A stretch of 64,000 bases of DNA from Candidatus Poribacteria bacterium. GTDB lineage: Bacteria > Poribacteria > WGA-4E > WGA-3G. The stretch lies in the NCBI GenBank assembly GCA_963664215.1, contig OY761015.1; one strand, 5' to 3'. The position numbers and the translations under genes are program-made. The notes under the pieces are model-generated. The model had not been told where the DNA came from, made no database searches, and saw nothing but the letters and a program-made list of their open reading frames with translations. Below, one piece after another: positions 4,116 to 47,751 of this stretch (positions are counted from its first letter, which is position 1; the number at the start of each line of letters is the position of its first letter).

Positions 4116-4120
4116 CTTTT

Positions 4121-4630: not shown

Positions 4631-4749
4631 AAATTTTCACCTCTAACTTCGATATGGAACTCGAAATAAATGCTCTTAATACCATGATACCATGAAGAGT
4701 GAAGGATGTCAAGGACAAACGGTGGAAATGTCAAAGGCATTCAATTCTC

Positions 4750-4776
4750 TTGTAGGAGGGAACTCCGATTCCCGAC
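4750..4776. repeat. family A intergenic hairpin repeat
   Basis: TGTAGGAGGGAACTCCGATTCCCGAC, identical to copies at 3041-3067 and 12242-12268. Confidence 0.8.
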
Positions 4777-4855
4777 GCATCCGGCAAGCATTGGATATAA
4801 CTTGGAGATTACGCTTATGCCGGCGTTGAGTGCCTCGAATCTGAGAAAATTTTGC

Positions 4856-4884
4856 TTGACAAAAAATAACCTATCTGTTACAAT
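4856..4884 (+). promoter_or_regulatory. sigma70-type promoter TTGACA-N17-TACAAT upstream of helicase gene
   Basis: TTGACA at 4856-4861, 17 nt spacer, TACAAT at 4879-4884; GGAGG SD further downstream before ATG 4955. Confidence 0.55.
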
Positions 4885-4954
4885 TGTCTTAAGATTATGC
4901 CTCCAACTGCTGGTACATTACGCAGAGGAGGTTTGGAGTTAAAGGGAGGGTTGG

Positions 4955-7417
4955 ATGCTGTACAAAGGGTTGCAACTGGATCGGTTTCAGGAGGAAGCGA
5001 TCGCGGCGATTAACCGGGATACCTCAGTGATTGTCACTGCCCCCACGGGTGCTGGTAAAACTGTCATCGCTGAATATGCCGTCGAAAAGTGTCTTAAAGA
5101 GAACCGCCGCGTTATCTATACCGCACCGATCAAAGCCCTCAGTAATCAGAAATATCGGGACTTTTACGCCGAATATGGGGAAAAAATCGGCATTGTTACA
5201 GGTGATGTGGTACTCAATCCGTATGCACAAGTCCTGTTGATGACGACCGAGATTTTTCGGAATACTATCTTTGACGATATTGAACGGTTACAAGACGTCT
5301 CTTACGTCATCTTTGATGAAATCCATTATATTAACGATATCGAGCGCGGCACCGTCTGGGAAGAGAGCCTCATTTTCGCACCCCAACATATCAAATTTGT
5401 CTGCCTGAGTGCTACAATCCCGAATATTAATCCTTTTACAGAATGGATGCAAAGTGTGCGGGATATTGACATTGAGATCGTCGAAGAATTAAAACGTCCC
5501 GTTCCTTTGGAACATCATCTCTATTTTAAAGATTACGGCGTTGGTGAGGTAGAGCATATCCCCGCGCTGCGGAAACGAGCCCAGCACGATACGCGTAAAC
5601 GAAAATCCGATCCATTTGACGATAAAACCCCTCCGGCACTTCCTTCTGATTTTGTAGAGACGCGTCTTATTCCACATCTTCGTCGAGAGAAACAACTCCC
5701 CTGTCTCTATTTCTGCTTTAGCCGTAAAGGTTGCGAAGAAAACGCATTTTCATTGGTGTTCGGATCGCAGTTACACTTGCTTAATAAAAAACAGACCGCA
5801 GAAATTTTAAAGCAATTTGATGAACTCTGCCGCCAATTTGACATTGTCGAGGAAAAGAAGATTACGGAATTCCGTAAGTTAGTAGGTTGTGGTATTGCCT
5901 ATCATCACGCCGGGATGTTACCAACCCTTAAAGAGGTTGTTGAAAGGTTATTTACCTCCGGATTGATTCAGCTCCTTTTTACTACCGAAACGTTCGCTGT
6001 TGGTATTAATATGCCAGCCTGTTCGGTGGTTTTTGACAGTCTTGAGAAATTTGATGGACTCGGTTTTCGATACCTCAAAGCACGGGAATATCATCAGATG
6101 TCAGGGCGCGCAGGCAGACGCGGTATTGACACTATCGGTTATGTTTATGCTCAAATTATGCCCGCATACGCCGATTTAAATGAAATTCGGGGTATTGTTT
6201 CTGATAAAATCGAACCCATAGAGAGTCAATTCAATCTTTCCTACTCCAGCATTCTCAACCTTTATCAGAAATATGGCGAAGACATTTACGATGTGTACAC
6301 GATGAGTTTGAGTAACCATCAGAACCGTGTACGGGTCTCTAAACTCAACAAACAGATTGAGGATAAGACGGAGAGACTTCAGACACTCCCTAAACCGGAG
6401 TGTATTCACGACGGTGTTGATGGGGGTGAGCAAATTGAGAAGCATTATCGCCAGGAACGAAATCATGAGAAAAAACTTCAGCGTTTGTATGTAGAGGTAT
6501 CGCAAATCAAATCACAGACGCGAGGGAAAAAACGGAAAAAGGAACGCGCGAAGAAGTTGAGGACCGTTCACAAAAAAATAAAACGTTTTCAAGCAAGTCG
6601 TGAGCAGAGTCTTTGTGACGAATGTCAACATTTGAATACGTGTACGGGAAGATATAAAACCATCCGCAAGGAGGAGGAGCGACTTCAGAAACTCAAGAAG
6701 CGGACAACATCTGTTGAGAACGATCCACAGCGACAGATAGCCGCCCGTTTGAAGGTGCTTGAAGAACTCGGATATATTGAAGCACAATCCATTCTACCGC
6801 GTGGGAACACCGCCGCTCATCTTTACGGATATGAGGTCCAGCTAACCCAATTACTCTTTAGTGGATTTTTTGAAAGACTCTCGGAGGACGCAATTAACTG
6901 TCTCATGGTGGCGATTGTTACCGAACCGCGTAAGGATGGATACTTCAAGCCCCTCAAAGACGAACGTTTGTTAGAGGAACTTTACACAGTCAATTCTGAA
7001 ATTTCGTTCATACAGCATTTAGAGGTCAAGCATAAAGTGACTGAAATCACACCGCTGTTGGAACTTCGGCTCTGCACTGCGATGCTCGCTTGGAGTCGAG
7101 GGTGTGACTTTGACAAGCTTGAAAGATATGCTCGTTTGGATGCCGGCGACTTTGTCAGAGCCTTTCGACTGGTTATCGATCAACTCCGCCAAATCCGTCG
7201 TACTATGAGTGGTCATACTGCCCTCGTTGAGAAACTCAATCGATGTATTGGCAAGATTAACAGAGATGTTGTGGATGCAGAGCGACAATTACGGATTGGG
7301 CAGGAAAGCCTTGATGAAGCAACAGTGGAAGATCCTGGCGTGGATGTAGAACAATCCGTTGCCGGTGAAAGTTCCGATGATGCTGAAACTGGAAATGATA
7401 CATCGGTTGCTTCTTAG
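4955..7417 (+). CDS. Ski2/HelY-family DEAD/DEAH-box ATP-dependent helicase
   Basis: 820 aa; Walker A APTGAGKT, DEIH box, helicase C motifs, Ski2-like C-terminal region with Cys cluster CDECQHLNTC. Confidence 0.8.
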   Translation: MLYKGLQLDRFQEEAIAAINRDTSVIVTAPTGAGKTVIAEYAVEKCLKENRRVIYTAPIKALSNQKYRDFYAEYGEKIGIVTGDVVLNPYAQVLLMTTEIFRNTIFDDIERLQDVSYVIFDEIHYINDIERGTVWEESLIFAPQHIKFVCLSATIPNINPFTEWMQSVRDIDIEIVEELKRPVPLEHHLYFKDYGVGEVEHIPALRKRAQHDTRKRKSDPFDDKTPPALPSDFVETRLIPHLRREKQLPCLYFCFSRKGCEENAFSLVFGSQLHLLNKKQTAEILKQFDELCRQFDIVEEKKITEFRKLVGCGIAYHHAGMLPTLKEVVERLFTSGLIQLLFTTETFAVGINMPACSVVFDSLEKFDGLGFRYLKAREYHQMSGRAGRRGIDTIGYVYAQIMPAYADLNEIRGIVSDKIEPIESQFNLSYSSILNLYQKYGEDIYDVYTMSLSNHQNRVRVSKLNKQIEDKTERLQTLPKPECIHDGVDGGEQIEKHYRQERNHEKKLQRLYVEVSQIKSQTRGKKRKKERAKKLRTVHKKIKRFQASREQSLCDECQHLNTCTGRYKTIRKEEERLQKLKKRTTSVENDPQRQIAARLKVLEELGYIEAQSILPRGNTAAHLYGYEVQLTQLLFSGFFERLSEDAINCLMVAIVTEPRKDGYFKPLKDERLLEELYTVNSEISFIQHLEVKHKVTEITPLLELRLCTAMLAWSRGCDFDKLERYARLDAGDFVRAFRLVIDQLRQIRRTMSGHTALVEKLNRCIGKINRDVVDAERQLRIGQESLDEATVEDPGVDVEQSVAGESSDDAETGNDTSVAS

Positions 7418-7580
7418 GATGTTTCGGTTTCAATGGGTACAACTTTAAAAAGTGATTGTAATGTGACGCAGATTGTATTACAATGGCAGAATAGATGTGT
7501 ATAGATGCTGGTTATTGGGACGCACTGCGGCGCAGTGCTTGAAGATGCTGGCACCTTGATAAAGATTAAAGGAGAATAAC

Positions 7581-8138
7581 ATGGCAAATCAAGATTTTGG
7601 CTTAACCGGTGCACTTAAAGTCCGCCCGGCTGAAGAAAACGATGCAACACATTTACACACATTTTGTTTTCCTGAAAAAACCAAAACAGAGGTTACGCAG
7701 GAACTGCAAGCCGATTTGGAATCAGATGGTCAGATCCATCGACTCGTTGCAGAGTCAAGTGGGTATCCAATCGGGCAAATCACCGTGAGTAAGGATGCTG
7801 GCGATCCTGAGGTAGCCCAAGTTGGAAATCTCGCTGTATCAGGACCCTTTCGGCAATTAGGCGTCGCCGACCATCTCATAAGGGCTGCCGAGGCTACCGC
7901 CGCAGAAAATGGCGCGAAAACGCTTGAAATTGAACTCTCCGCCTCGGAAACGAATGTCATCGACAGATATAAGGATTGGGGATTCGTTGAAAAGCCGCTT
8001 GTTATCCTGCAGAAAGCACTTGATGCAGAAGAGCCAGAAGAAGTTGAAGCAGTCGAAGAACCTGAACAGACGGACGAAAACGAGAGTGAAAACGTTGTTG
8101 AAGCCGGTGGTGAACAGCAGGAACTTCTTAATGCCTAA
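7581..8138 (+). CDS. GNAT family N-acetyltransferase with acidic C-terminal tail
   Basis: 185 aa; QVGNLAVSGPFRQLGVADHLIRAAEATAAENGAKTLEIE acetyl-CoA binding region. Confidence 0.65.
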   Translation: MANQDFGLTGALKVRPAEENDATHLHTFCFPEKTKTEVTQELQADLESDGQIHRLVAESSGYPIGQITVSKDAGDPEVAQVGNLAVSGPFRQLGVADHLIRAAEATAAENGAKTLEIELSASETNVIDRYKDWGFVEKPLVILQKALDAEEPEEVEAVEEPEQTDENESENVVEAGGEQQELLNA

Positions 8139-8266
8139 TGGTGTGACGCAGCCAACGAACCCGCACTGCCAGGGTCCCCACCCATTACTCGGAAGGGATA
8201 CTCAGCGAGGCAAGCGCGGTTTCATGAAGATTAATTTATTTATTCGGTAATGCTATTAAGAAAAGC

Positions 8267-8297
8267 ACTTGTAGGGGCAGGTCTTGTGCCTGCCCAC
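8267..8297. repeat. family D intergenic hairpin repeat (CTTGTAGGGGyAGGTCTTGTGCCTrCCCC)
   Basis: Matches 24340-24373; stem GGGGCAGG/CCTGCCC. Confidence 0.7.
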
Positions 8298-8333
8298 ATA
8301 TCACTGACCGACAGTGGCGTAGGAGAATGAACT

Positions 8334-9218
8334 ATGAAAAGAATCTGGCTTGCCTTGGTGCTTATACTCTTTGGAGTCGGATGTGGCACCCAGAACGAGA
8401 ACCTCGCGAAGGGTAAAGAACTGATTAAATCGGATAAACGCCGCAAAGAGGAACGCGCTGTCCGAGAATTTAAACTCGCACTCCAGCAGCAGATTGATAG
8501 TGCTGAGGCACACTATCTGCTCGGATTTTACAACTCACAGGAATTTTATGAGCCGAACACTACTGATTGGGAGGAAGCATCGATCACTGAGCGGGGCAAA
8601 CAGATGTTCCTCGCATATCAGGCGGAACAACGGAAATACCTCGAAAGACTCGTTTTTGAGACACTCCGTGATGATGATTTGGATGTCCAGAATGCCGCAC
8701 TTGATGCTCTCAGACGGGTTTATAAGAAAGGGGACCGGAAGCGACTCCTCAGTCAACTCCAAAAGGCGATTAAGTCGAGTGATAATCGCGATAGGCATAA
8801 TGCACATTGGATACTTGGGCAGATCGGTAAGGAGGATCCGGGGACGATTGTCCCTATCTTGGTGAAACTTCTGGATCATCGAAGAACGGAAACACGCTTG
8901 AATGCCGTCAAGGCACTCGGCGAGGTAGGCAGTGAACAAGCAATTCCAGCACTCGCTGCATTGATTGAGTCGGGTTCTGCGAAATGGGAGCGCGACCGAG
9001 AAGAACCTGAGGTGCGACAACTCGCTGTTGAATCACTTGGAAAGATCGGTGGTGCCGCTGTGCCAGAATTGGTCAAAATTGTGGAGAATAAGGGGTCATC
9101 GCTGCGTGTTGATGCCATTCGAGCGTTGGCAGTCCTCGGTGACGAAAAAGTTGTCGAACCTCTCTTAGAGGCTTTGAAAGAACAGAGCAGCCGGGATGTG
9201 GTTATCCCTCTTAACTGA
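8334..9218 (+). CDS. HEAT-repeat (PBS lyase-like) lipoprotein
   Basis: 294 aa; lipobox LFGVGC; repeated LxAxxALGxxGxxxAxxxL HEAT units. Confidence 0.6.
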   Translation: MKRIWLALVLILFGVGCGTQNENLAKGKELIKSDKRRKEERAVREFKLALQQQIDSAEAHYLLGFYNSQEFYEPNTTDWEEASITERGKQMFLAYQAEQRKYLERLVFETLRDDDLDVQNAALDALRRVYKKGDRKRLLSQLQKAIKSSDNRDRHNAHWILGQIGKEDPGTIVPILVKLLDHRRTETRLNAVKALGEVGSEQAIPALAALIESGSAKWERDREEPEVRQLAVESLGKIGGAAVPELVKIVENKGSSLRVDAIRALAVLGDEKVVEPLLEALKEQSSRDVVIPLN

Positions 9219-9349
9219 ACACTCAGCTGTTCTGACCCTTTTGGCGCAACTTGCAATCCGAATCTTCATAAGGCTATGTGCGTAGCTCGTAACGTAGTGG
9301 AGAGCGGATTTGAGAAAGGATTGTCAAAGTTCCAATCCATGTCATTTAA

Positions 9350-9372
9350 CCGCAAGGAATAATTAAAAAATG
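9350..9372 (+). promoter_or_regulatory. conserved leader motif CCGCAAGGAATAATTAAAAAATG ending on start codon
   Basis: Near-identical 23-mer also at 12319-12362 (two tandem copies), 46739-46761, 42609-42631; variants at 30993-31011, 55534-55557(-), 49914-49938(-), 32380-32416. Confidence 0.6.
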
Positions 9373-10818
9373 CGAAAAAAAATAACACGGTTTAGCACAC
9401 CTCACCGCTTGGTGTTTATCGTGCCCCTTCTTTTGGTCATGATACTCGGACTCGGATGTGATAACCAGTATCACGATGAACGCCTGAAGATGCAGGTACA
9501 GCAGTTAGACAGCGACCTGAAAGATCGCTGGTCAACCAGCGGTGTCGTTGTTTTGAGTACCACACCAAACGGACCCGCAGATAGAGCACAACTTGAGACC
9601 GGTGAGCTCATCTCTTATGTCATCGCAGAATATCCTGTCCGAAGTACCGGAGATTTTAACAGCGCCATGAAACAGGCAGTTGATGAGGATAATAACTTCG
9701 TCCTCTACTTGAAGGATAAACCGCCGCTCCGTATCGCGCTCCGAAGACGAGGGGATAAGGTGGGATTGAGTGTTGAAGGAAACGGCACCGTACGGGTCAA
9801 ACAGATTCAACCCGGCACTCCCGCCGCGAATGCTGATATTCAGGTAGGCGACATTATTGAGAAGATTGTTGATGAGCGCAAAATTTATAGCCTTGATGAC
9901 TATAAGGATACGCTTGGAAAACTCTCTGAGAAGCAAGTCACCTTCCGTACCTCTGAATTAATAGGTGTGAAGATTGCTGCTGTGAATGCGCTTGGCGATT
10001 TAGGGGATATCCGGGCAATTCAACCGCTCGTGGACCTCTTCAAAAATAGCACTGAGTTCTCGCTTCGAAAAGGGGCAATTAGTAGTCTGCAACGCCTTGT
10101 GGAATTGAGCGTCCTCAACGAGCTTTTCCAGCAGTTTCAGAGTGCTGATGTGAATCAGCTCCCAGCCGATAGCCTCCAGCCACAGCAGTTGGAGCCCGCG
10201 GCAATCCTCGGATTGCTTACTGTAGACAGGACCGAGAATACCGCTACGCTCAAAGCACCTTTCGGAACGCAATTCAGACACAGATCCGAGGCACTTTATC
10301 AGAAAATTAACGAAGGACAACTTGCTGAACTTGCCCAAGAATATATCCAGATCGAAGTAGAACCGGAGCAGGAGATTCGACGCGCGTGCTTGGCTATACT
10401 CGGAATTCTCAAACCAGTTTCTGCGATTGATGCACTCGTCGCTGTCCTGGAAAACCCAACAGAGATCCCCGGAATTCGCTTCCAAGCAGGGTTAGCGCTC
10501 AGTCAGATTGGTGAACCCGCTGTTGATGCGCTTATCGCCGCATTTGAAAAGGGAGATACCAGCACGCAGGACATTGCCGCTTCTGCACTCGGAGGCATTG
10601 GGGGGGCTAAGGCGCGTGATCGGTTGATTAATGCTTTGGAAAGTAGCACTGAGTCGGCGATTCAACTCACACTTGTCGATGCGATCGCAAAAATCGGCGA
10701 TGCACCCTCTATCCAGGCATTGGAACGCCAGCTTCAGCGGTCCCAGCAGGATGATGACAGCGGAGTCCGCATCTTTCTGGACGAGGTTTTCAGGAGTTTG
10801 GCATTTTCTAACGATTGA
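9370..10818 (+). CDS. membrane-anchored PDZ domain plus HEAT-repeat protein
   Basis: 482 aa; N-terminal TM; PDZ-like segment GTPAANADIQVGDIIEKI; multiple HEAT repeats. Confidence 0.55.
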   Translation: MRKKITRFSTPHRLVFIVPLLLVMILGLGCDNQYHDERLKMQVQQLDSDLKDRWSTSGVVVLSTTPNGPADRAQLETGELISYVIAEYPVRSTGDFNSAMKQAVDEDNNFVLYLKDKPPLRIALRRRGDKVGLSVEGNGTVRVKQIQPGTPAANADIQVGDIIEKIVDERKIYSLDDYKDTLGKLSEKQVTFRTSELIGVKIAAVNALGDLGDIRAIQPLVDLFKNSTEFSLRKGAISSLQRLVELSVLNELFQQFQSADVNQLPADSLQPQQLEPAAILGLLTVDRTENTATLKAPFGTQFRHRSEALYQKINEGQLAELAQEYIQIEVEPEQEIRRACLAILGILKPVSAIDALVAVLENPTEIPGIRFQAGLALSQIGEPAVDALIAAFEKGDTSTQDIAASALGGIGGAKARDRLINALESSTESAIQLTLVDAIAKIGDAPSIQALERQLQRSQQDDDSGVRIFLDEVFRSLAFSND

Positions 10819-10895
10819 ATCTGAACTGCTACGTCTGTTGTCTTTGCAGTATTTCAATCGTTCAAAATCTCTCATCATTGACAGACGGTTGGATC

Positions 10896-10977
10896 TAACC
10901 GAGAACCACCGTGAAACATTGTCCCGCAGGGCTCCTTGATAGGCTTGCACAGGGAACGGTGCCCAGATTCCCATAGC
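10896..10977. repeat. ~78 nt conserved intergenic element, family E copy 1
   Basis: TAACCGAgAACC...GTGAAACATTGTCC...AGGCTTGCACAGGGAACgGtGCCCAGATTCCCATAG; second copy at 29938-30015 with 33/36 identity in the 3' half. Confidence 0.8.
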
Positions 10978-11003
10978 TAAAAAAAACGGGTCGTGGGCTG
11001 CTA

Positions 11004-11840
11004 ATGAAGATTGGACTCATTTCAGACTTGCACACGGACATTACGCCTTGGAATAAGGCACTTGTCCCACATCTTATTGATGCCGTTAGTGCCGCAGAGC
11101 TTGATGTTTTCGTACTCGCAGGAGATCTCGCGCGACATTTAGTTCATCTTTCTGAAACGCTGAATGCCTTTCATCTTGCGGATCTGGCGTGTGAGAAATT
11201 GTTCGTTCCCGGTAACCACGACATTTGGGCTATTGAGACCGTTAACGTTACAAGTGAACAGAAGTGTGGGATTATTTCGGAACTCTGTCATGCCTGCGGA
11301 TTTCATCCGTTGATGGACGAACCCTTTATCACGGAAAAAGTCGGTTTCTGTGGGACTATCGGCTGGTACGATTATAGTTTTGCCCCAGACGGATACAATT
11401 TTTCCGACGATCAATATGCCGAAAAGGAATTGACGGGAGCCGTCTGGAACGATAAGCGATACGCTAAATGGGGTGATACCGATCCGGTTATTGCCCGACG
11501 TTTTGAAGCGGATCTTGAGAGGCAGATTGCCTCTATTCAGAGGGATGTATCTCGGATCGTTGTCGTTACACATCATGTTCCGTTTCGAGAGTGTATCCGA
11601 TACCGCGGTGAGTTGCCATGGGATTATTTTCGAGCATTCATGGGCAGCAAACATCTCGGGGCACAATGCTTACAGGAGTCTCTCGTCACGCATGCACTCT
11701 TCGGGCATGTACATCATGCAGTTGATATGCAAGTTCGCAGTGTACGGGCTATTTCTGCTCCTGTCGGTTATCTTCAGGAAGAACCTACCGTCGGATTGCA
11801 GACGTATGCCGCAGAATGTTTGACGTGTTTCAAGGTATAA
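11004..11840 (+). CDS. calcineurin-like metallophosphoesterase
   Basis: 278 aa; DLH, GDL, GNHD phosphoesterase motifs. Confidence 0.65.
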   Translation: MKIGLISDLHTDITPWNKALVPHLIDAVSAAELDVFVLAGDLARHLVHLSETLNAFHLADLACEKLFVPGNHDIWAIETVNVTSEQKCGIISELCHACGFHPLMDEPFITEKVGFCGTIGWYDYSFAPDGYNFSDDQYAEKELTGAVWNDKRYAKWGDTDPVIARRFEADLERQIASIQRDVSRIVVVTHHVPFRECIRYRGELPWDYFRAFMGSKHLGAQCLQESLVTHALFGHVHHAVDMQVRSVRAISAPVGYLQEEPTVGLQTYAAECLTCFKV

Positions 11841-11870
11841 TTGAATTTAAAGGATAGAAAGGAAAACACT

Positions 11871-12230
11871 ATGGATGTAACTTTAACGAACAGTAACGAT
11901 GCAGGGGCTCTTGAATTTCCGTGGGGCGCGATTAAGTGGCTCTGTAACGATCAGATTGATCCAGAAGCTGAGATGACATTTGGTGTCGTCTATATTAACG
12001 CCGGTGAAGGCAACCCTACCCACTATCATCCGAACTGTGAGGAGCTGATCTATGTGCTCTCAGGTGAATGCGATCACAGATTGGGAGATGAGGTGATCCC
12101 GCTCAGACCGGGTATGATGCTACGTATTCCGCGTAATGTCAAACACAATGCCGTCAACACCGGTTGGCAACCCGTAACGATGATTATCTGTTATTCGGAT
12201 GCCGATCGGCAAACCATTTTTGAAGAATAG
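11871..12230 (+). CDS. cupin domain protein
   Basis: ATG at 11871 preceded by GAAAGGAAAA RBS (track ORF starts at 11841 immediately after the upstream stop, unlikely); conserved HYHPNCEELIYVLSG and NVKHNAVN cupin motifs. Confidence 0.6.
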   Translation: MDVTLTNSNDAGALEFPWGAIKWLCNDQIDPEAEMTFGVVYINAGEGNPTHYHPNCEELIYVLSGECDHRLGDEVIPLRPGMMLRIPRNVKHNAVNTGWQPVTMIICYSDADRQTIFEE

Positions 12231-12241
12231 AAGCGATTCTT

Positions 12242-12300
12242 CTGTAGGAGGGAACTCCGATTCCCGATCGCTTCTGTAGGAGGGATTTTTAATCCCGACC
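12242..12300. repeat. family A hairpin repeats (two tandem copies, second with GGGAT-TTTTA-ATCCC stem variant)
   Basis: CTGTAGGAGGGAACTCCGATTCCCGAT and CTGTAGGAGGGATTTTTAATCCCGACC; compensatory stem change supports hairpin function. Confidence 0.75.
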
Positions 12301-12359
12301 CTATCCTACTCCATTTAACCGCAAGGAAAAATTAAAAAACCGCAAGGTATCATTAAAAA

Positions 12360-13073
12360 ATGTCTACAGAATCTCGTTGCAGTGTTAAAATCTGCGGTAT
12401 CACCTCTATCCATGATGCTCAACTTGCTGCCGATGCAGGCGCGGATTACATCGGGGTATTGGTGGATGTTGCCGTATCCGAACGGACACGCTCCGCGACG
12501 CAAGCCGCTGAAATTGCCAGCAAGAGTCCTATTCCTACCGTCATTCTACTCTATAACCGTTCAACATCTGACATCCAAGAAATCATCTCACAGGTCCAAC
12601 CTTTTGCCGTTCAACTCCTTGGCCAGGAACCTCCGCAACAAGTTGAGGCACTTAAACGCGAAGGCGCATGTCAATTTTGGAAATCGGTGTATTTGCCGGC
12701 GGGAAGTCCTAAAAATGTGGACATACCGGCTGTTCAGGAGGAGATGCAGGCATATTGGAAGGCGGGCGCGGATTTCCTGCTATTTGATAGCGTGGATATG
12801 AGCCTTGAAAAACCGAGATACGGCGGCACCGGAAAAACCTGTGATTGGAATGTTGCTGCTGGACTCATTACGAGGAGTCCACTGCCGGTTTTCTTCGCAG
12901 GTGGGATTCGTCCAGAGAACGTCAAAGCCGCGATTGAGACAATTCAGCCACACGGTATCGACCTCTGCTCCGGTGTCGAGGCATCAAAGGGTATCAAAGA
13001 TCCGAGCAAATTGGAACGACTTATGGCACAGGTTGAGCAGGCTGACAAAAAGCAGAGAAATTATTCACAATAA
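12360..13073 (+). CDS. trpF: phosphoribosylanthranilate isomerase
   Basis: 237 aa; KICGITSIHDAQLAADAGADYIGVL and C-terminal FAGGIRPENV motifs of TrpF; no other trp genes adjacent. Confidence 0.85.
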   Translation: MSTESRCSVKICGITSIHDAQLAADAGADYIGVLVDVAVSERTRSATQAAEIASKSPIPTVILLYNRSTSDIQEIISQVQPFAVQLLGQEPPQQVEALKREGACQFWKSVYLPAGSPKNVDIPAVQEEMQAYWKAGADFLLFDSVDMSLEKPRYGGTGKTCDWNVAAGLITRSPLPVFFAGGIRPENVKAAIETIQPHGIDLCSGVEASKGIKDPSKLERLMAQVEQADKKQRNYSQ

Positions 13074-13163
13074 TTGTTGACAAAATATTGCTGTAATTAC
13101 ATTATGAAATACTTTTAGGGCAAGACTTTTGTGTTCCTGCCTTATCACCTATAGGAGGTCTTT

Positions 13164-13895
13164 ATGAACGATCGTTTTGTTCAGACTTTTAGCAATCTTC
13201 TTCGGTTGGTTCCCATTGTAGCACTTGTTTGTGGGCTGTCTATTCTCGGATTTTCTACCGCCTTCGCGGATAGTCATGAAACTGAGGGTGAAGCGGCGGA
13301 AGAAAAACCGAAGATTACAGGTTGGTTCCAGATTGATGTCGATAGTTTAGGCACCTATTTTTTAGTTGGGGCGAGCCATCCGCTCAGCGGTGGCATCTCA
13401 TTTGATTCTAATATCTATGTTAATGATCATTTGGGCGAGTTTGATATGGGCGTTTCGTTCCCTGTTATCGCGAATGACAGCATGGCACTGCTGCTAACAC
13501 CAATGCTCGGTGTCGGGTTTGATTATACCACGGCAGATGGTCCCTATGCCTTATACCCACAAATCTTTGCGATTCTACCTGCTGGTAAAATCTTCGGCTT
13601 CCATTGGACAATCAGCACGGTCAAGACCCTATTTGATACCGAAAGCCTCAATGAAGTCTACAATCGAACTTATTTCACCTATGCTCTTAATGATATTGTC
13701 GCTGTCGGTCCGCAGTTTGAATCCGTACTCGGTCTCGGTGATGGTGGTGGACTGTGGGCTCTCAATTTCGGGGGGCGAGTGAATATCGGATATGGCGAGA
13801 ATAACACACTCGGTATATACGTTGGGTATGAAACTAAAAAGGGTGAAGGTGAAACCGGACTTACCGGTAGGATGAATTTTACGCGTAGATGGTAA
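13164..13895 (+). CDS. putative small outer-membrane beta-barrel protein (paralog of 15748-16467)
   Basis: 243 aa; signal peptide; alternating hydrophobic beta-strand pattern; C-terminal GRMNFTRRW ending in aromatic residue as in OMP beta-barrels. Confidence 0.4.
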   Translation: MNDRFVQTFSNLLRLVPIVALVCGLSILGFSTAFADSHETEGEAAEEKPKITGWFQIDVDSLGTYFLVGASHPLSGGISFDSNIYVNDHLGEFDMGVSFPVIANDSMALLLTPMLGVGFDYTTADGPYALYPQIFAILPAGKIFGFHWTISTVKTLFDTESLNEVYNRTYFTYALNDIVAVGPQFESVLGLGDGGGLWALNFGGRVNIGYGENNTLGIYVGYETKKGEGETGLTGRMNFTRRW

Positions 13896-30781: not shown

Positions 30782-31008
30782 TCCACTAAAAATTGTCCAA
30801 AGCTGAGTATAAAAAATTATGAAGGTTTTTCGGGCACAAATCAACAAATAGAAAAGAACTGTATTAGTTCTATGATTCGCTTAAGGGAAGCTGCGGTTAC
30901 GAACAATTGTCTTAAGACGGCAACCTGCAACAACGGCGCAGGCGTATATAAAGAAAAGTGAGGCATAAACAGACCACCTTATTTTAACGTCTCGCGAATA
31001 ATTAAAAA

Positions 31009-32208
31009 ATGAGAATATTAGCGCGGTATATACTTAAAGAATTTTTTCCACCATTCATCATAGCACTTATCTGTTTTACCTTTATCCTCATCTTCGATGA
31101 CCTTTTTCGGTTGACGAAGTTGTTTGTGCAAAAGGGGATAAGTCCGGTTTACCTTGTCGAATTGCTCTTCTATGTGATGCCAGCGACGGTGGTGTTATCT
31201 CTTCCGATGGCGGCTTTGGTCGCGATTTTACTTTCTCTCGGTAGACTCTCTACCGATAATGAGATCATCGCGATGAAAGCACACGGTGTCCCTTTCCATC
31301 ATCTCATGCTACCACTTTTAGGCATTGCAGTGGTACTCAGCGTTGTCGATCTCGGATTGATGGACTACGCGCTGCCGAAGGCGAATCTTGCTTACGCCAC
31401 GCTCAAACGCGATATCCAAAGACACAATCCAACGTTCGTTTTGGAAGAAGCCACTGTCATGAAAGAATTGGAGAAAGAAGGCAAATTATGGATGTACGAA
31501 TCCACGGATGCCAAGAGTGGGCGCATGCAGGATGTCAAAATCTGGGACGGTATCTGGACTGGGCGTCCGCGGTTCAGCCACGCCCGAGAAGGCACCCTCG
31601 GTTTTGAAGGCGGTAGAGCCATGCTTACGCTTTACGATGGGCTCACTTACGAACCGACAACCGATGATTCAGAGGCATATCGTGTAACACAGTTCCAGCA
31701 GCAACAACTGGCACTGCAGATGACCGAGGATCTGGAGCGCGGCGCGTTTCGGAACCAGACACCACGGTCAATGAGTATTGTCCAACTCAAGGCATTCATC
31801 AATACGTTGGCAGCCTCCGTACAAACCAGCCAAAATCCTGATTATACCCGGAGTAGACTCCGTTTTGCGGAAGTCGAGTATCACAAAAAGTTTTCTATCC
31901 CTTTCGCGTGTTTGGCGTTCGGGTTGATGGGCGTGCCGCTTGGGTTGATGGTAAAACAGAGCGGGAAAATGATTGGCTTTGGTCTCGGCTTAGCTGTGAT
32001 TTTAGTTTACTACTTACTGCTTCAGATCGGCCAAAGCGCAGGTTTGAACGGTATGATATCTCCTGCCCTTGCCATGTGGCTGCCCAATATTGCTATCGGT
32101 GCGTTCGGCGTTTTCCTGAGTATCCGTATGATAGGTGAAGGAACGCTGCGAACTTGGCGTACCCGCGACACATTGCCCCTTGTCGTCAATAGGAAAGTCG
32201 AATCATAG
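31009..32208 (+). CDS. lptF: LptF/LptG family LPS export permease
   Basis: 399 aa; MRILARYILKEFFPPF N-terminus and YjgP/YjgQ topology. Confidence 0.75.
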   Translation: MRILARYILKEFFPPFIIALICFTFILIFDDLFRLTKLFVQKGISPVYLVELLFYVMPATVVLSLPMAALVAILLSLGRLSTDNEIIAMKAHGVPFHHLMLPLLGIAVVLSVVDLGLMDYALPKANLAYATLKRDIQRHNPTFVLEEATVMKELEKEGKLWMYESTDAKSGRMQDVKIWDGIWTGRPRFSHAREGTLGFEGGRAMLTLYDGLTYEPTTDDSEAYRVTQFQQQQLALQMTEDLERGAFRNQTPRSMSIVQLKAFINTLAASVQTSQNPDYTRSRLRFAEVEYHKKFSIPFACLAFGLMGVPLGLMVKQSGKMIGFGLGLAVILVYYLLLQIGQSAGLNGMISPALAMWLPNIAIGAFGVFLSIRMIGEGTLRTWRTRDTLPLVVNRKVES

Positions 32209-32413
32209 CCAAGTATTGCTTCAACTTTGACTTTATGATCAGTAGGTCGGGTAGAGCGTCAGCGAAACCCGACATCTTCGGGCATTCTTCATGGCATCCG
32301 AAGACCCGCCCTCAAACGCAATATTGACAGACTACGAGGGAGACTGTCAGCAGTCAGTTGCCAGTTCCATGTTGTTATTCCGCAAGGTAAGTTAGAAAAT
32401 CAGGACATAAGCC

Positions 32414-42586: not shown

Positions 42587-42628
42587 ACTAAGGTATAATT
42601 AAAAATCTCCGCAAGGTAAATTAAAACT

Positions 42629-43048
42629 ATGTCTCTCCGTAGGCGATCTCGCATCGTTGCGATGCAAATACTATATCAGATTCAACTCACCGCCGCGCCA
42701 GTGCCAAGCGTTATGGAACGGTTTTGGCAGAGCCAAGACACATCGGCAGAACTCCGACCCTTCGCTTTGGAACTCGTTGAAGGCACGACTTCACATCTGG
42801 AGGCGATTGATACAATACTCCAAGATACATCCAAAAATTGGAAACTCCACCGGATGCCTGTCGTCGATCTCTCTATTCTGCGATGTGCAACTTACGAAAT
42901 TCTCTATCTTGACGATATCGACGCGGCAACCTCGATCAACGAGGCTGTTGAGATCGCTAAATCCTACAGCACCCCGGACTCCCCTAAATTTATCAATGGG
43001 GTCTTGGACAATATCCGAAAAAAACATCCGCATGTTCCTGAATCTTAA
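42629..43048 (+). CDS. nusB: transcription antitermination factor NusB
   Basis: 139 aa; MSLRRRSRIVAMQILYQ N-terminus typical of NusB. Confidence 0.8.
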   Translation: MSLRRRSRIVAMQILYQIQLTAAPVPSVMERFWQSQDTSAELRPFALELVEGTTSHLEAIDTILQDTSKNWKLHRMPVVDLSILRCATYEILYLDDIDAATSINEAVEIAKSYSTPDSPKFINGVLDNIRKKHPHVPES

Positions 43049-45812: not shown

Positions 45813-46660
45813 ATGGCATCTTTTGGAACAGGTGATTATCAGTATGAAGTCGTCGAAGGGTGGGGGATGATTCCGCAACTCGGACTCGTTTCCGGCGTAG
45901 CATGCGACTCAAATGACAGAGTCTACGTTTTTAATCGGAGTCCACAACCTGCGATGCTCGTTTTCGAGGCAGATGGCACCTTCGTAACGGAATGGGGTAA
46001 GGACATCTTTCAGAAACCACACGGTATCTGGATAAGTCCCGACGATGAAATCTATACCACAGACACCGTTGATCATACCGTGCGGAAATTCTCGCTGGGT
46101 GGGGAATTGTTAGAGACCTTCGGCACTGTCGACCAGCCGGGACCACCAGGCGGACCTTTTAATGAACCGACGCGTGCTGTTCTCTCGACATCTGGGAGAT
46201 GTACGTCTCTGATGGCTATGGACAGTCGCGGGTGCACCGAATGACTGCCGATGGTGAGGTTATCGTTTCATGGGGCGCACCTGGCACCGGACCTGGTGAA
46301 TTTAACCTTCCACACGATGTTACCGTGGACCATAATGACCGCGTTTATATTCTCGATCGTGGGAACCTCCGCTGTCAGATTTTTAACAACAACGGTGAAT
46401 ACCTGACGGAGTGGACAGATCTCCGTTCCCCGAATGATCTTTTCATTGATAGTGATAACATCATTCACATCGCTGAAGGTGGGCAGCGCATCAGCATCAT
46501 GACGCTTGAGGGTGACGTCATCGGACGGTGGGGCGAGAAGGGAGATGCTCCCGGACAATTCAGTGATTCCCCACACGGCATTTGGATCGATTCAAATGGG
46601 AACATCTATGTCAGTGAAGTCATCGCTGATAGACGTTTCCAGAAATTCGCAAGGGTTTAA
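45813..46660 (+). pseudogene. NHL-repeat protein gene interrupted by -1 frameshift in a G-run (track ORFs 45813-46244 and 46199-46660 are one gene)
   Basis: Frame A ends ...FNEPTRAVLSTSGRCTSL; frame B continues ...IWEMYVSDGYGQSRVHRMTADGE; restoring one G at 46194-46196 (GGG to GGGG) gives ...AVLSTSGEMYVSDGYGQSRV, a canonical NHL unit. Confidence 0.6.
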
Positions 46661-46758
46661 TTGGTTAACTGAAACGCAACCAACGGGCGTGCTGACTCGA
46701 ACCTAATACGGGTCAAATTTCAATTTGCTGTTACTTATCCGCAAGGAATAATTAAAAA

Positions 46759-47751
46759 ATGGTTCAACATCTATGTTTTGGCAGTGCGATGTGTAAACGT
46801 GTATTGCAGATCAGTCTCATTGTTATCGGTGTTATGGTGTGTGCGTCGGCTTTTGCTGACGAAGGGCATGAACATTCAGGCGATCGGATAAAAGAGTTTA
46901 TGACCCAACCGCTGACGCTCCAGTTTATAATCGCTGCGCTCGTCATCTCATTCGTACTCGGCGGCTTGCACGCATTGACACCCGGACACGGGAAAGCCAT
47001 AGTCGCCGCTTATCTCGTCGGTTCCAAAGGCAGGGTAATTGACGCAGTTTTTCTTGGGCTTGTTGTCACCTTTACGCACACCTTCAGTGTCATAGCACTT
47101 GGCATCGTGATGCTGGTAGCACAAGGGTTCGCACCGGAGGATATCGTTCCGTGGTTAAGTCTATTCTCTGGTGTTTTAATTGTGGGTATAGGCGCGTGGC
47201 TGTTCACGAAAAATATGAAACAGTACTATACTGGTGGTGCACACAGCCACAGCCATGGACATGGAGACGGGCATCACCACCCGCATGACCACGACCATTC
47301 ACATGACCATGACCCCGACCACGACCATGATCATAATCACGATCACGGTCATTCACATGATCACGACCATGACCCCGACCAGGGACTTACACACAGTCAT
47401 GGGGGACGGGTGCATAGTCATGCCCCGCCGGAACGGACAGGTTTTTGGGGATTGCTATCGCTCGGTATCTCCGGTGGCATTGTCCCTTGTGTTGATGCGC
47501 TCGTTGGGCTTCTGTTCGCGATTAATCTCAACAAACTTGTCTGGGGTCTAATTATTCTATGTGCTTTCTCATTGGGGCTTGCCGCTGTTCTGGTTGCTAT
47601 CGGTATTCTGATGGTGATGGCGAAACCGTTGTTTGAACGCTTCACAGGCGAAGGTATCTGGCTCCAACGCCTACCGATTATCAGTGCCGCTGTCGTTGTT
47701 CTGCTCGGTGCAGTATTAGTATTCAAGGCACTCAACACTGTCGGTATTTAG
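46759..47751 (+). CDS. NicO/RcnA family nickel/cobalt transporter with histidine-rich loop
   Basis: 330 aa; LTPGHGKA motif; long HDHDHSHDHDPDHDHDHNHDHGHSHDHDHD loop. Confidence 0.65.
   Translation: MVQHLCFGSAMCKRVLQISLIVIGVMVCASAFADEGHEHSGDRIKEFMTQPLTLQFIIAALVISFVLGGLHALTPGHGKAIVAAYLVGSKGRVIDAVFLGLVVTFTHTFSVIALGIVMLVAQGFAPEDIVPWLSLFSGVLIVGIGAWLFTKNMKQYYTGGAHSHSHGHGDGHHHPHDHDHSHDHDPDHDHDHNHDHGHSHDHDHDPDQGLTHSHGGRVHSHAPPERTGFWGLLSLGISGGIVPCVDALVGLLFAINLNKLVWGLIILCAFSLGLAAVLVAIGILMVMAKPLFERFTGEGIWLQRLPIISAAVVVLLGAVLVFKALNTVGI

What the first reader, a model, noticed from the sequence alone, without database searches (positions are those of the whole stretch)
9350..9372. Recurrent 23-nt leader CCGCAAGGnAnAATTAAAAAATG fused to start codons of unrelated genes
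Near-identical copies end on the ATG of the PDZ/HEAT gene (9350), trpF (two tandem copies, 12319-12362), nusB (42609), the RcnA-like gene (46739) and an ABC exporter (55534-55557, minus strand). Shorter variants sit before lptF (30993), lptG (32380) and the MacB-like permease (49914-49938, where it forms the perfect palindrome CCTTGCAAGG). Several copies share a further upstream CATTTAACC. The genes are functionally unrelated, so this looks like a lineage-specific expression signal (an extended AAGGA SD plus an A-rich enhancer, or a binding site) rather than a regulon. The distance to the ATG is too short for the motif to act as a -35 element.
Basis: seen in the sequence. Interest (0 to 1): 0.55.

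Follow-up and report, generated by a model that had tools for sequence, protein, structure and literature searches.

The report
Poribacterial repeat carrying a start-codon leader
The 23-base "leader" is real, but it is only the tail of a ~105-base hairpin-containing intergenic repeat that I found only in the sponge-symbiont phylum Poribacteria; the repeat sits flush against the start codons of many unrelated genes and seems to supply, and sometimes overwrite, their ribosome-loading site and ATG.

Summary
CCGCAAGGNANAATTAAAAAATG occurs 5 times in the window (0 expected by chance), always ending on, or tandem to a copy that ends on, the ATG of an unrelated gene. All 113 genome blocks returned by an exact-match scan come from Poribacteria MAGs.

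The motif is not a free-standing consensus signal. It is the 3' module of a ~105-115-nt dispersed repeat made of four parts:
- a short leader;
- a GTAG-tagged hairpin with a covarying stem;
- a second imperfect hairpin;
- CCGCAAGG + WAWAATTAAAAA + ATG.

Ordinary Poribacteria genes use a canonical GGAG Shine-Dalgarno (SD) sequence at -12..-9. The 16S 3' end is canonical, so CCGC has no rRNA partner and AAGG(A) pairs no better than random sequence.

The repeat lies mostly in co-directional spacers and points at the downstream gene. Orthologue comparisons show recent gains that replace the native spacer, SD and even a TTG start codon. 5'-truncated copies reduced to the 3' module form whole intercistronic spacers.

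Best reading: a REP-like repeat family whose unstructured A/U-rich tail acts as a portable translation-initiation region. Main rival: a -10 box for leaderless mRNA. I rate it a new variant of a known kind. I found no prior description.

The parts
9267..9281 (+). 5' leader of the full element upstream of the HEAT/PDZ gene (family consensus TTWNACCAAANCCG; a poor match to it here)
   Evidence: Logo anchored on the TAG of 106 non-redundant copies shows conservation from about -15 to -1. Sequence read.
9282..9305 (+). Hairpin 1: GTAG-tagged palindrome GTAGCTCGTAACGTAGTGGAGAGC (REP-like)
   Evidence: Covarying stem in alignment A1: cols 13-32 CG38/UA7, 14-31 CG36/UA10, 15-30 UA26/CG20, 21-25 CG38/UA9. 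0 of 500 shuffles reach the observed covariation, and slid controls collapse. Coordinates.
9306..9349 (+). Domain 2: second imperfect hairpin (GGATTTGAGAAAGGATTGTCAAAGTTCCAATCCATGTCATTTAA).
   Evidence: Closing pairs 41-77 (CG20/GU10/AU9) and 42-76 (GC22/AU19) covary across three subfamilies. MFE fold.
9350..9369 (+). 3' unit CCGCAAGGAATAATTAAAAA (the reported motif)
   Evidence: Identical in the orthologues L074, L113, L068 and L056.
9370..9372 (+). ATG of the HEAT/PDZ gene; behaves as part of the repeat unit
   Evidence: In an orthologue comparison among the fetched loci, L034 (with the repeat) starts on ATG where L025 and L101 have TTG.
9274..9372 (+). Whole element as matched by covariance model R1 (98.4 bits, E 2e-20)
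12244..12309 (+). Two GTAG palindromes of another type (GTAGGAGGGAACTCCGATTCCC; GTAGGAGGGATTTTTAATCCCGACCCTATCCTAC) upstream of trpF
   Evidence: The same module lies upstream of trpF in L057.
12319..12339 (+). Upstream tandem copy of the 3' unit (CCGCAAGGAAAAATTAAAAAA), not on a start codon
12340..12362 (+). Start-proximal 3' unit + ATG of trpF (PRAI); orthologous to the unit in L056, L113, L057 and L068 while the upstream modules differ
30912..31011 (+). Full element upstream of lptF: hairpin 1 of the other loop type (CCTGCAACAACGGCGCAGG, 30924-30942), degenerate 3' unit (CGCGAATAATTAAAAA, 30993-31008) and ATG at 31009
   Evidence: R1 hit of 45.3 bits, E 3e-8.
42588..42631 (+). Two degenerate tandem 3' units (CTAAGGTATAATTAAAAA; CCGCAAGGTAAATTAAAACT) + ATG of nusB, directly downstream of a canonical TTGACA-N17-TATAAT promoter
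   Evidence: (17.9 bits).
46656..46761 (+). Full element of the 'GACTCGAAC...ACTTAT' subfamily + ATG of the NicO/RcnA-like gene. A degenerate older 3' unit (TCGCAAGGGTTTAATT) lies just upstream.
   Evidence: R1 hit of 46.3 bits, E 2e-8.
55534..55607 (-). 5'-truncated element + ATG of the ABC exporter (3' unit 55537-55556, ATG 55536-55534)
   Evidence: R1 hit of 33.7 bits. A truncated element also precedes the orthologue in L022.
49914..49945 (-). Degenerate 3' unit (CCTTGCAAGGTAAAATCGAGAA) + ATG of the MacB-like permease
   Evidence: Weak R1 hit of 12.7 bits.
32380..32399 (+). Degenerate, unfused 3' unit (CCGCAAGGTAAGTTAGAAAA), 14 nt before the TTG of lptG
   Evidence: (11.6 bits).

Best explanation
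What it is. The 23-nt motif is the 3' terminal module of a dispersed intergenic repeat of about 105-115 nt that I found only in Poribacteria. The repeat has four parts: a short leader, a GTAG-tagged hairpin of REP type, a second imperfect hairpin, and then single-stranded CCGCAAGG-WAWAATTAAAAA-ATG.

Abundance and position. By extrapolation there are roughly 10-13 copies per 100 kb. Copies lie mainly in spacers between co-directional genes, point towards the downstream gene and, in a large fraction, end exactly on its ATG.

How it works (inferred). The element is co-transcribed with its neighbours. The two hairpins act as RNA structure, as a stabiliser, barrier or insulator. The unstructured A/U-rich tail, with a weak and distant AAGG, is the ribosome-loading region for the downstream gene, probably depending more on A/U-richness and accessibility than on SD pairing.

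How it spreads. Gains are shown to replace the native spacer, the SD and even the start codon, so the ATG behaves as part of the unit. The spreading mechanism is unknown. Candidates are mobilisation by a RAYT-type Y1 transposase and/or recombination or template switching between copies.

Open point. The near-invariant CCGCAAGG serves the element itself (a recognition or structural role), not rRNA pairing.
For: Shown: it is a repeat.
- Conservation extends 50 nt or more upstream of CCGCAAGG but not into the coding sequence.
- 47 full copies align over 103 columns at 71% mean identity.
- Stem covariation beats 500/500 shuffles and the slid controls.
- The covariance model finds 6 significant copies in the window, all ending on a same-strand ATG.
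- nhmmer finds 237 copies in 959 kb.
- No Rfam family matches, even at E<=10.

Shown: lineage. All 113 blocks are Poribacteria MAGs from 25 or more assemblies.

Shown: position.
- 138 of 153 copies point at a same-strand downstream gene.
- 123 of 153 lie between co-directional genes.
- The distance to the downstream start is 0 at the median, whereas the distance from the upstream stop is broad (median 95 nt).
- 90% of element-bearing genes have a co-directional upstream neighbour, against 74% of other genes.

Shown: it substitutes for the ribosome-binding site.
- The cupin gene (window 11871) has a native 30-nt spacer with the SD GAAAGGAAA in the window, L113 and L057. In L056 the whole spacer is replaced by an element abutting the ATG.
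- L034 has the element plus ATG where L025 and L101 have ACAGGAGGACACT-TTG.
- 14 of 60 orthologue groups had at least one orthologue lacking the 3'-unit pattern; on inspection about 8 of these are clear presence/absence cases and the rest carry degenerate or offset units.
- In 19 cases the upstream ORF stops 70 nt or less from the ATG with only the 3' unit between them. In L014 and L068 the stop codon lies inside the unit.
- At nusB the units lie downstream of a perfect TTGACA-N17-TATAAT promoter, i.e. in the 5' UTR.
- Positions -12..-1 are predicted unpaired with probability 0.75, against 0.50 in other genes.

Shown: REP context. A Y1_Tnp (RAYT-like) gene flanked by GTAG palindromes exists in a Poribacteria chromosome.

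Inferred: co-transcription, the role of the hairpins, and the mode of spread.
Against: - Anti-SD pairing of the unit (-4.0 to -5.3 kcal/mol) is no better than random intragenic sequence (-4.6). AAGG lies 12 nt from the ATG, against a predicted duplex-to-ATG spacer of about 7 nt (median) at ordinary genes. As an SD it is weak, so the initiation function rests on context evidence only.
- CCGCAAGG is about 97% conserved in fused and unfused copies alike and is not explained by translation.
- About half of the non-ascertained copies are not on a start codon: 64 unfused and 16 followed by another unit, against 44 fused.
- WAWAAT at -12..-7 with the A of ATG at +1 is exactly the geometry of a -10 box for a leaderless mRNA.
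- No expression data are available.
- No target-site duplication or cognate transposase has been identified. The one RAYT found has a different REP.
- The fetched loci were ascertained on the perfect motif, so counts from them are biased.
Confidence: 0.6

Rival explanations
1. The 3' unit is an outward-facing -10 promoter element. WAWAAT occupies -12..-7 and transcription would start at the A of the ATG, giving leaderless mRNAs. The repeat would then be a portable promoter rather than a portable ribosome-binding site.
For: - The conservation profile of the unit fits a -10 hexamer: A at -11 0.92, T at -7 0.90, A at -9 0.88, A at -8 0.78, W at -12 and -10.
- The spacing to the ATG is fixed, and ATG is almost always the start. 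The element replaced a TTG by ATG, and leaderless translation favours AUG.
- Anti-SD pairing is weak.
Against: - There is no -35-like hexamer 16-18 nt upstream. That position reads ACCCAC or ATCCAC. The two-hexamer scan calls nothing at the units, yet it finds the canonical promoter upstream of gene 13164.
- Canonical TTGACA/TAnAAT promoters are used elsewhere in the window.
- Element-bearing genes are depleted in divergent, promoter-only spacers: 10% against 26%.
- Copies reduced to 14-35-nt intercistronic spacers, or overlapping the upstream stop codon, look like operon-internal ribosome-binding sites.
- At nusB the units lie downstream of a perfect promoter.
- AAGG is retained even in the most truncated copies (L068), which a -10 box would not require.
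- A second start-fused family shares AATTAAAAA-ATG but not a good -10 in every copy.
Confidence: 0.15
2. The shared leader (CCGCAAGG and/or the hairpins) is a recognition site for a trans-acting factor: an RNA-binding protein of CsrA type (GGA in CAAGGA), an sRNA or an RNase. Hundreds of unrelated genes would then form one post-transcriptional regulon. This is compatible with the best explanation but adds a regulatory layer.
For: - CCGCAAGG is about 97% conserved irrespective of fusion to a start codon and is not explained by rRNA pairing.
- CC-GCAA-GG can form a GNRA-capped mini-hairpin that presents GGA next to the start region.
- The element is strand-specific. G-U pairs are frequent in the stems (UG 19 at cols 17-28; GU 10 at cols 41-77), pointing to function of one strand, most simply RNA.
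Against: - No candidate factor has been identified.
- High conservation may simply reflect young copies or the needs of the mobilisation machinery.
- Invariant positions give no covariation evidence.
- 40% of copies read AAGGT rather than AAGGA.
Confidence: 0.12
3. One reading: the motif is the lineage's general extended Shine-Dalgarno plus A-rich enhancer, arising independently at each gene by selection, not a repeat.
For: AAGGA can pair with CCUUU of the 16S tail. An A-rich -5..-1 region is common at starts in these genomes.
Against: - About 85 nt of shared, hairpin-forming sequence lies upstream of the motif.
- Ordinary genes use GGAG at -12..-9.
- CCGC has no complement in the canonical 16S tail.
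- Copies occur away from starts and in tandem arrays.
- Presence/absence varies between close relatives.
Confidence: 0.03
4. The unit mimics helix 27 of 16S rRNA (CCGCAAGGUUAAAACUC, with the GCAA tetraloop) and binds a ribosomal or assembly factor.
For: The Poribacteria 16S itself carries CCGCAAGGTTAAAACTCAAGG. CCGCAAGGTAAAA matches 12 of 13 positions.
Against: The local alignment score is not exceptional. It is reached by 16, 64 and 439 of 1000 shuffles for three unit variants, and by 233 of 1000 for the full consensus. No similarity extends beyond 13 nt.
Confidence: 0.02

Closest known systems
GTAG-tagged REP sequences / BIMEs and their RAYT (Y1) transposases (Di Nocera et al. 2013, PMC3733652; Nunvar et al. 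2010, PMC2817692)
   Same: - An unpaired GTAG tag followed by a 20-25-nt imperfect palindrome with a covarying stem.
- Extragenic, high copy number, several types per genome.
- Mainly between unidirectional ORFs and plausibly transcribed.
- A Y1_Tnp gene flanked by GTAG palindromes exists in the lineage.
   Different: - Classical REPs sit close to the 3' end of the upstream ORF and at variable distance from the downstream one (PMC3733652, section on genome distribution). This element is the reverse: flush with the downstream ATG and variable from the upstream stop.
- It is a ~105-nt composite carrying a second hairpin and a start region.
- Copies are single or in direct tandem (23 direct against 4 inverted neighbour pairs), not inverted REPIN/BIME pairs.
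- No cognate RAYT was found for its hairpin types.
Mycobacterial interspersed repetitive units, MIRUs (from my own knowledge: Supply et al. 1997, Mol Microbiol)
   Same: Intercistronic repeats of 40-100 bp, oriented with the operon, whose ends overlap the stop and start codons of flanking genes and are thought to provide translational coupling. Tandem copy-number variation occurs.
   Different: MIRUs are open-reading tandem units without the GTAG hairpin or the second hairpin. They are few in number (tens). They are not known to overwrite SD and start codon at hundreds of genes. The phylum is different.
Promoter- or stability-modulating MITEs such as Neisseria Correia elements, ERIC, BOX/RUP (from my own knowledge)
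   Same: Dispersed ~100-150-nt intergenic repeats that are co-transcribed, fold into hairpins and change the expression of neighbouring genes. Presence/absence varies between close relatives.
   Different: Those elements have terminal inverted repeats and target-site duplications, insert at variable distance from genes and in both orientations. None is described as ending precisely on the start codon.
A/U-rich, weak-SD translation initiation regions (S1-dependent enhancers) and leaderless-mRNA promoters
   Same: An unstructured A/U-rich tract immediately 5' of AUG with little anti-SD pairing. Alternatively, a TAnAAT-like hexamer lies 6-7 nt before the AUG.
   Different: Here the signal is a fixed 20-nt sequence delivered by a repeat, in genomes that otherwise use canonical SDs and canonical two-hexamer promoters.

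Membership tests
REP (GTAG super-family) | Unpaired GTAG tag at one end of a 20-40-bp imperfect palindrome | tested here: met
   Positions preceding the stem: G 0.66, T 0.81, A 1.00, G 1.00 (A and G were fixed by the anchoring pattern used). The stem covaries.
REP (GTAG super-family) | High copy number (more than 100 per genome), extragenic | tested here: inconclusive
   6-8 copies in the 64-kb window. About 119 non-ascertained copies in 895 kb. Extrapolation gives several hundred per 5-6-Mb genome, but no whole genome was counted. All copies examined are extragenic or overlap gene ends.
REP (GTAG super-family) | Located near the 3' end of the upstream ORF; mostly unidirectional or convergent spacers | tested here: not met
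   The preference for unidirectional spacers is met (123 of 153 copies). However, the element is anchored to the downstream start (median distance 0) and lies at a median of 95 nt from the upstream stop. Only 4 of 153 copies are in convergent spacers.
REPIN / BIME | REPs arranged as inverted pairs or in alternating orientation | tested here: not met
   Neighbouring hairpin-1 copies within 250 nt: 23 direct, 4 inverted. 128 of 142 hairpins lie inside the composite unit.
REP/RAYT system | A cognate RAYT (Y1 transposase) gene flanked by the same REP | tested here: inconclusive
   A Y1_Tnp gene (L093 2558-3031; Pfam E 5e-10) is flanked by GTAG palindromes, but of a different sequence (GTAGGAGCGAGCTGTGCTCGC).
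MITE | Terminal inverted repeats and target-site duplication | tested here: not met
   The 5' leader (TTWNACCAAANCCG) and the 3' end (ATTAAAAA) are not inverted copies of each other. Filled/empty comparisons show replacement of native sequence without duplication.
Shine-Dalgarno sequence | Complementarity to the 16S 3' tail stronger than background, 5-9 nt from the start | tested here: not met
   16S tail CACCUCCUUUCU. Unit duplex -4.0 to -5.3 kcal/mol, against -4.6 for random sequence and -6.4 for other genes. AAGG ends 12 nt from the ATG.
Sigma-70 promoter | -35 and -10 hexamers 16-18 nt apart | tested here: not met
   A -10-like WAWAAT is present, but there is no -35 and the scan makes no call at the units.
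Any Rfam family | Covariance-model match | tested here: not met
   Only tRNA-Ala reaches the gathering threshold. Nothing overlaps the elements even at E<=10.
MIRU-like intercistronic repeat | Unit reads through as a small ORF overlapping the flanking stop and start codons | not tested
   Only noted that in L014 and L068 the upstream stop lies inside the 3' unit. No systematic frame analysis was done.

The most novel reading that the evidence does not exclude
A mobile or recombining 'portable gene-start cassette' (hairpins, ribosome-loading tract and ATG) has overwritten the native 5' ends of several percent of genes across a bacterial phylum. Hundreds of unrelated mRNAs would then share one leader that a single trans-acting factor recognising CCGCAAGG or the hairpins could control: a genome-encoded counterpart of a spliced leader. 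Alternatively, the cassette spreads by a so far undescribed start-codon-targeted replacement mechanism.
Probability: 0.2. Interest if true: 0.85.

Novelty: new variant of a known kind. Interest (0 to 1): 0.66.

Why it matters
- Role of repeats. Dispersed bacterial repeats (REPs, MITEs) are known to end transcripts, stabilise mRNAs or create promoters. I found no report, in the literature I could search or from my own knowledge, of one that delivers the ribosome-loading region and the start codon itself, flush against many unrelated genes, and displaces the native SD and start. If confirmed, gene starts in this phylum are partly standardised by a repeat family.
- Annotation. The motif would be a strong start-codon marker in Poribacteria MAGs.
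- Translation. It is a natural case of weak-SD, A/U-rich initiation inside an SD-using organism.
- Genome evolution. Whole-spacer replacement occurs between close relatives.
- Possible global control. Uncultivated sponge symbionts might regulate many genes through one shared leader.
- Practical use. It offers a natural insulated 5' UTR design.

Tried and rejected
1. Extended anti-SD pairing. I recovered the Poribacteria 16S 3' end from L034 and a full 16S from L152. The tail is canonical and CCGC has no partner.
2. Mimicry of 16S helix 27 (CCGCAAGGUUAAAAC). The match is real but not significant against shuffles.
3. Known RNA family. Rfam at gathering threshold and at E<=10 finds nothing on the elements. 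A remembered 'Poribacteria-1' motif could not be traced in the paper library.
4. Two-hexamer promoter in the unit or in the 5' leader. None is called.
5. MITE-type inverted ends or target duplication. None seen.
6. Pairing of CCGC with the conserved GCGG after hairpin 1. It appears in some single-sequence folds, but both sides are invariant or subfamily-inconsistent, so it is untestable.
7. RNAalifold on the full alignment recovers only hairpin 1 and the CC/GG mini-stem. The inner stem of domain 2 (cols 46-49 with 65-69) pairs in only 40% of cells.
8. The first metagenome scan for a 16S V9 signature found nothing.
9. Literature searches for Poribacteria plus SD, repeat, palindrome or RNA motif gave nothing relevant.
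10. Comparing per-position conservation in fused and unfused copies gave only a small difference, in the A-run, and is confounded by detection bias.
Full report

Yes. The pattern CCGCAAGGNANAATTAAAAAATG matches exactly at 9350-9372(+), 46739-46761(+) and 55534-55556(-). It matches with 1-2 mismatches at 12319-12341 and 12340-12362, a tandem pair with a 21-nt period. No match occurred in any of 100 dinucleotide-preserving shuffles.

The 8-mer CCGCAAGG occurs 8 times against 2.0 expected.

Pfam confirms that the genes are unrelated: HEAT/PDZ, PRAI, NusB, NicO, ABC_tran, LptF_LptG twice, and MacB_PCD/FtsX. Domain matches begin within the first 1-9 residues in several, so the ATGs are genuine starts. 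Independent gene calls on four public metagenome contigs use the same ATGs for trpF and the neighbouring cupin gene.

**2. Where does it occur?**

112 are titled Candidatus/uncultured Poribacteria. The remaining one ('uncultured bacterium', L046) carries a near-identical element and gene start to the Poribacteria block L008. At least 25 assemblies are represented, including complete chromosomes.

The window itself is syntenic at 75-90% identity with several of these blocks: L074, L068, L113, L056 and L057 over 3744-13894, and L022 over 47771-60861. The window is therefore from a Poribacteria genome, and the motif is specific to this lineage as far as the truncated scan shows.

**3. The motif is the tip of a longer repeat.**

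I aligned all 265 CCGCAAGG sites in the window plus the blocks (959 kb). Information content extends at least 50 nt upstream but vanishes 3' of the ATG. Reading the sites shows one architecture.

Forty-seven full copies align over 103 columns at 71% mean identity (A1). From 5' to 3' the unit consists of:
- a ~15-nt leader, TTWNACCAAANCCG;
- a GTAG-tagged hairpin with two loop types, GTAGCCTGCAACAACGGCGCAGGC and GTAGCCCGTAACGAAGTGGAGGGC;
- a ~45-nt second domain with a conserved CGTCAAAGTYC centre and three subfamilies of closing strands.
- CCGCAAGG-WAWAATTAAAAA and ATG.

The stem of hairpin 1 covaries: cols 13-32 CG38/UA7, 14-31 CG36/UA10, 15-30 UA26/CG20, and inner pair 21-25 CG38/UA9. The closing pairs of domain 2 also covary: 41-77 CG20/GU10/AU9 and 42-76 GC22/AU19. 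Overall covariation exceeds 500 of 500 shuffles, and all slid controls collapse. Frequent G-U pairs suggest that one strand, most simply RNA, is what folds.

No Rfam family matches the element, even at E<=10.

A covariance model (R1) finds six significant copies in the window:
- 9274-9372;
- 46656-46761;
- 30912-31011;
- 55534-55607(-);
- 12268-12362;
- 42572-42631.

All six end on the ATG of a same-strand ORF. There are also weak remnants at the MacB-like gene and at lptG.

**4. How common is it, and how is it placed?**

nhmmer finds 237 copies in 959 kb. The blocks were ascertained on one perfect, ATG-containing motif each, so I set those 113 copies aside. Of the rest:
- about 44 are fused to a start codon with an ORF;
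- 16 are followed by another 3' unit;
- about 64 are not fused.

The unfused copies include tandem arrays of the whole unit (142-nt period in L049, 104 in L065, 114 in L066, 105 in L009). They also include copies followed at 10-30 nt by a canonical AGGAG SD and ATG, and a few abutting the stop of a convergent gene.

The non-ascertained density is about 13 per 100 kb, and about 10 per 100 kb in the window. That extrapolates to several hundred copies per 5-6-Mb genome. No whole genome was counted.

Orientation is strongly non-random:
- 138 of 153 copies point at a same-strand downstream gene;
- 123 of 153 lie between co-directional genes;
- the distance to the downstream start is 0 at the median, while the distance from the upstream stop to the GTAG is broad (median 95 nt).

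Ninety percent of element-bearing genes have a co-directional upstream neighbour, against 74% of other genes. This is the mirror image of classical GTAG REPs. Those hug the upstream stop and lie at variable distance from the downstream ORF (PMC3733652, read).

**5. What the 23 nt is not.**

*Not an extended Shine-Dalgarno.* The 16S 3' end of a motif-bearing Poribacteria genome (L034), and a complete Poribacteria 16S recovered from a metagenome contig (L152, 99% identical over the shared part), read ...GGATCACCTCCTTTCT. Only AAGG(A) can pair. The duplex energy is -4.0 kcal/mol (AAGGT) or -5.3 kcal/mol (AAGGA). Random intragenic sequence gives -4.6, other gene starts give -6.4 on average, and clear canonical SDs give -7 to -9.

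*Not the lineage's general signal.* Other genes show GGAG peaking at -12..-10. Conserved examples are AAAGGAGAATAAC-ATG, GTAGGAGAATGAACT-ATG and ATAGGAGGTCTTT-ATG. In the unit, AAGG starts at -16.

*Not a two-hexamer promoter.* Canonical TTGACA-N17-TAcAAT promoters are present upstream of genes 4955, 7581 and 13164 and are conserved in orthologues. Nothing -35-like lies 16-18 nt from WAWAAT, and the scan makes no call there.

*Probably not a helix 27 mimic.* The resemblance to 16S helix 27 (CCGCAAGGTTAAAACTC, present in the Poribacteria 16S) is not significant against shuffles.

**6. What it most likely does.**

Several independent observations point to a translation-initiation role for AAGG-WAWAATTAAAAA.

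(a) *It substitutes for the native site.* The cupin gene at window 11871 has a 30-nt native spacer with the SD GAAAGGAAA in the window, L113 and L057. In L056 (92% identical CDS) the whole spacer is replaced by a full element flush with the ATG. L034 has the element plus ATG where L025 and L101 have ACAGGAGGACACT-TTG, and the last codons of the upstream gene are changed as well. L089 reads ATG-CAC where L051 reads ATG-ATA-CAC. In the automated screen 14 of 60 orthologue groups had at least one orthologue lacking the 3'-unit pattern. On inspection about 8 of these are clear presence/absence cases; the others carry degenerate or offset units.

(b) *The 3' unit is the stable part.* Upstream of trpF, all five orthologues keep AAGG..ATTAAAAA-ATG, while the upstream modules differ. 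L056 and L113 have hairpin type A plus domain 2. L057 has type B. The window has another GTAG palindrome plus a tandem unit. L068 has nothing beyond TAAGGAATAATTAAAAA-ATG.

(c) *The unit alone can be the whole spacer.* In 19 cases a long upstream ORF stops 70 nt or less from the ATG, with only the unit (with or without a piece of domain 2) between them. In L014 and L068 the stop codon lies inside the unit. These are operon-internal arrangements.

(d) *It can sit in a 5' UTR.* At nusB, two degenerate units lie immediately downstream of a perfect TTGACA-N17-TATAAT promoter.

(e) *It is predicted to be accessible.* Positions -12..-1 are unpaired with probability 0.75 in element genes, against 0.50 in others. 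They are free in all six single-sequence folds.

Because SD pairing is weak and distant, I infer that loading relies mainly on the A/U-rich unstructured tract. The hairpins would act as structural boundaries or stabilisers in a co-transcribed RNA. None of this has been measured.

**7. What remains unexplained.**

- CCGCAAGG is about 97% conserved whether or not the copy is fused. It therefore serves the element itself. It may be a recognition or recombination site, a GCAA-capped mini-hairpin, or a protein site.
- WAWAAT at -12..-7, with the A of ATG at +1, has exactly the geometry and conservation profile of a -10 hexamer for a leaderless mRNA. I keep this as the main rival (0.15). The context evidence in 6(c) and 6(d), the depletion from divergent spacers and the missing -35 argue against it.
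- Gains are replacements with no target duplication. Junctions lie at the ATG or inside ATTAAAAA, as in L103 against L107, which at 95% CDS identity carry different element families between shared ends. The mechanism is unknown.

**8. Relation to known systems.**

Hairpin 1 meets the definition of a GTAG-tagged REP. A 157-aa Y1_Tnp (RAYT-like) gene flanked by GTAG palindromes exists in a Poribacteria chromosome (L093). Its REP differs from hairpin 1, and no cognate transposase was identified.

The composite fails other REP, REPIN and BIME features. Its anchoring is reversed, and its neighbours are direct rather than inverted (23 against 4). It also fails the MITE features of inverted ends and target duplication.

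Functionally the nearest analogue I know is the MIRU of mycobacteria, an intercistronic, operon-oriented repeat that overlaps stop and start codons. That comparison rests on my own knowledge and was not tested.

Searches of the paper library found no description of such an element in Poribacteria. I rate it a new variant of a known kind: a REP-like intergenic repeat with an unusual, start-codon-fused, RBS-replacing 3' module.

**9. Caveats.**

- The 113 blocks were ascertained on the perfect motif including the ATG. I corrected for this only crudely.
- Gene calls for the statistics are longest-ATG ORFs.
- The genome scan was truncated.
- Copy numbers are extrapolations.
- All functional statements are inferences from sequence context.

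Noticed in passing
L093:2300-3100: A 157-aa Y1_Tnp (IS200-like/RAYT) gene (2558-3031; Pfam E 5e-10; 26% identity to E. coli RayT). It is flanked by three direct GTAG palindromes upstream and one inverted palindrome downstream (GTAGGAGCGAGCTGTGCTCGCGATC). This is a classical RAYT/REP unit in a Poribacteria chromosome. The REP type has 12 copies in 7 of the fetched blocks.
   Followed up: partly
window 3043-3064, 4752-4773, 12244-12265, 12276-12309; ~32243-32275: Other GTAG-tagged palindrome families occur in the window: GTAGGAGGGAACTCCGATTCCC three times, GTAGGAGGGATTTTTAATCCCGACCCTATCCTAC, and GTAGGTCGGG...CCCGAC. The intergenic spacers of this genome hold several REP types.
   Followed up: partly
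L107 (upstream of ATGAAAAAC); L005:5015-5035; L107:1090-1110; L002:5170-5192; L033:2112-2132: A second, shorter start-codon-fused repeat family. It has a hairpin CTGCC-YGWAAYGAARTGGAR-GGCAG followed directly by CCCAGGAGCC(N)ATAAATTAAAAA-ATG. It shares the AATTAAAAA-ATG tail but carries GGAG (14 nt from the ATG) instead of CCGCAAGG.
   Followed up: partly
window 42555-42583: A perfect sigma-70 promoter, TTGACA-N17-TATAAT, lies immediately upstream of the two degenerate 3' units of nusB. The predicted transcript would begin at about the first unit.
   Followed up: no
L049:2650-3600 (minus strand); L065:1180-1700; L066:610-940; L009 (minus strand): Tandem arrays of the whole element: 7 copies at a 142-nt period in L049, and others at 104-, 114- and 105-nt periods. 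Only the last copy is fused to an ATG.
   Followed up: partly
46 copies in 36 of the fetched blocks (e.g. L052:4537-4656, L089, L111); none in the window: A 25-nt module, GGGTTTTTGCTTGGGTGTTTC, is inserted right after hairpin 1. Together with the hairpin it looks like an intrinsic terminator (stem followed by a T-run). Its reverse complement (CCCAAGCAAAAAC) occurs nearby in some loci.
   Followed up: no
L074:~5800-5880; L113:~3130-3230 (orthologues of window 9282-9305): In two orthologues, the loop of hairpin 1 upstream of the HEAT/PDZ gene carries nested palindromic insertions, e.g. ACCGCAAGCCTCTATAGGCTTGCGCTG.
   Followed up: no
L152:6640-8260 (minus strand); L034:1-290: A complete Poribacteria 16S rRNA gene. 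Its helix 27 reads CCGCAAGGTTAAAACTCAAGG, which resembles the 3' unit, but the resemblance is not significant against shuffles.
   Followed up: yes
L089 (minus strand, upstream of the element at 2211-2328): A tandem array with a ~35-nt period of another GTAG palindrome, GTAGTAGGCACACTCCGCTGTGCC.
   Followed up: no
window 48646-53689 versus L022: Synteny with L022 skips about 5 kb of the window (the MacB-like gene and its neighbours). This is a presence/absence difference between related genomes.
   Followed up: no
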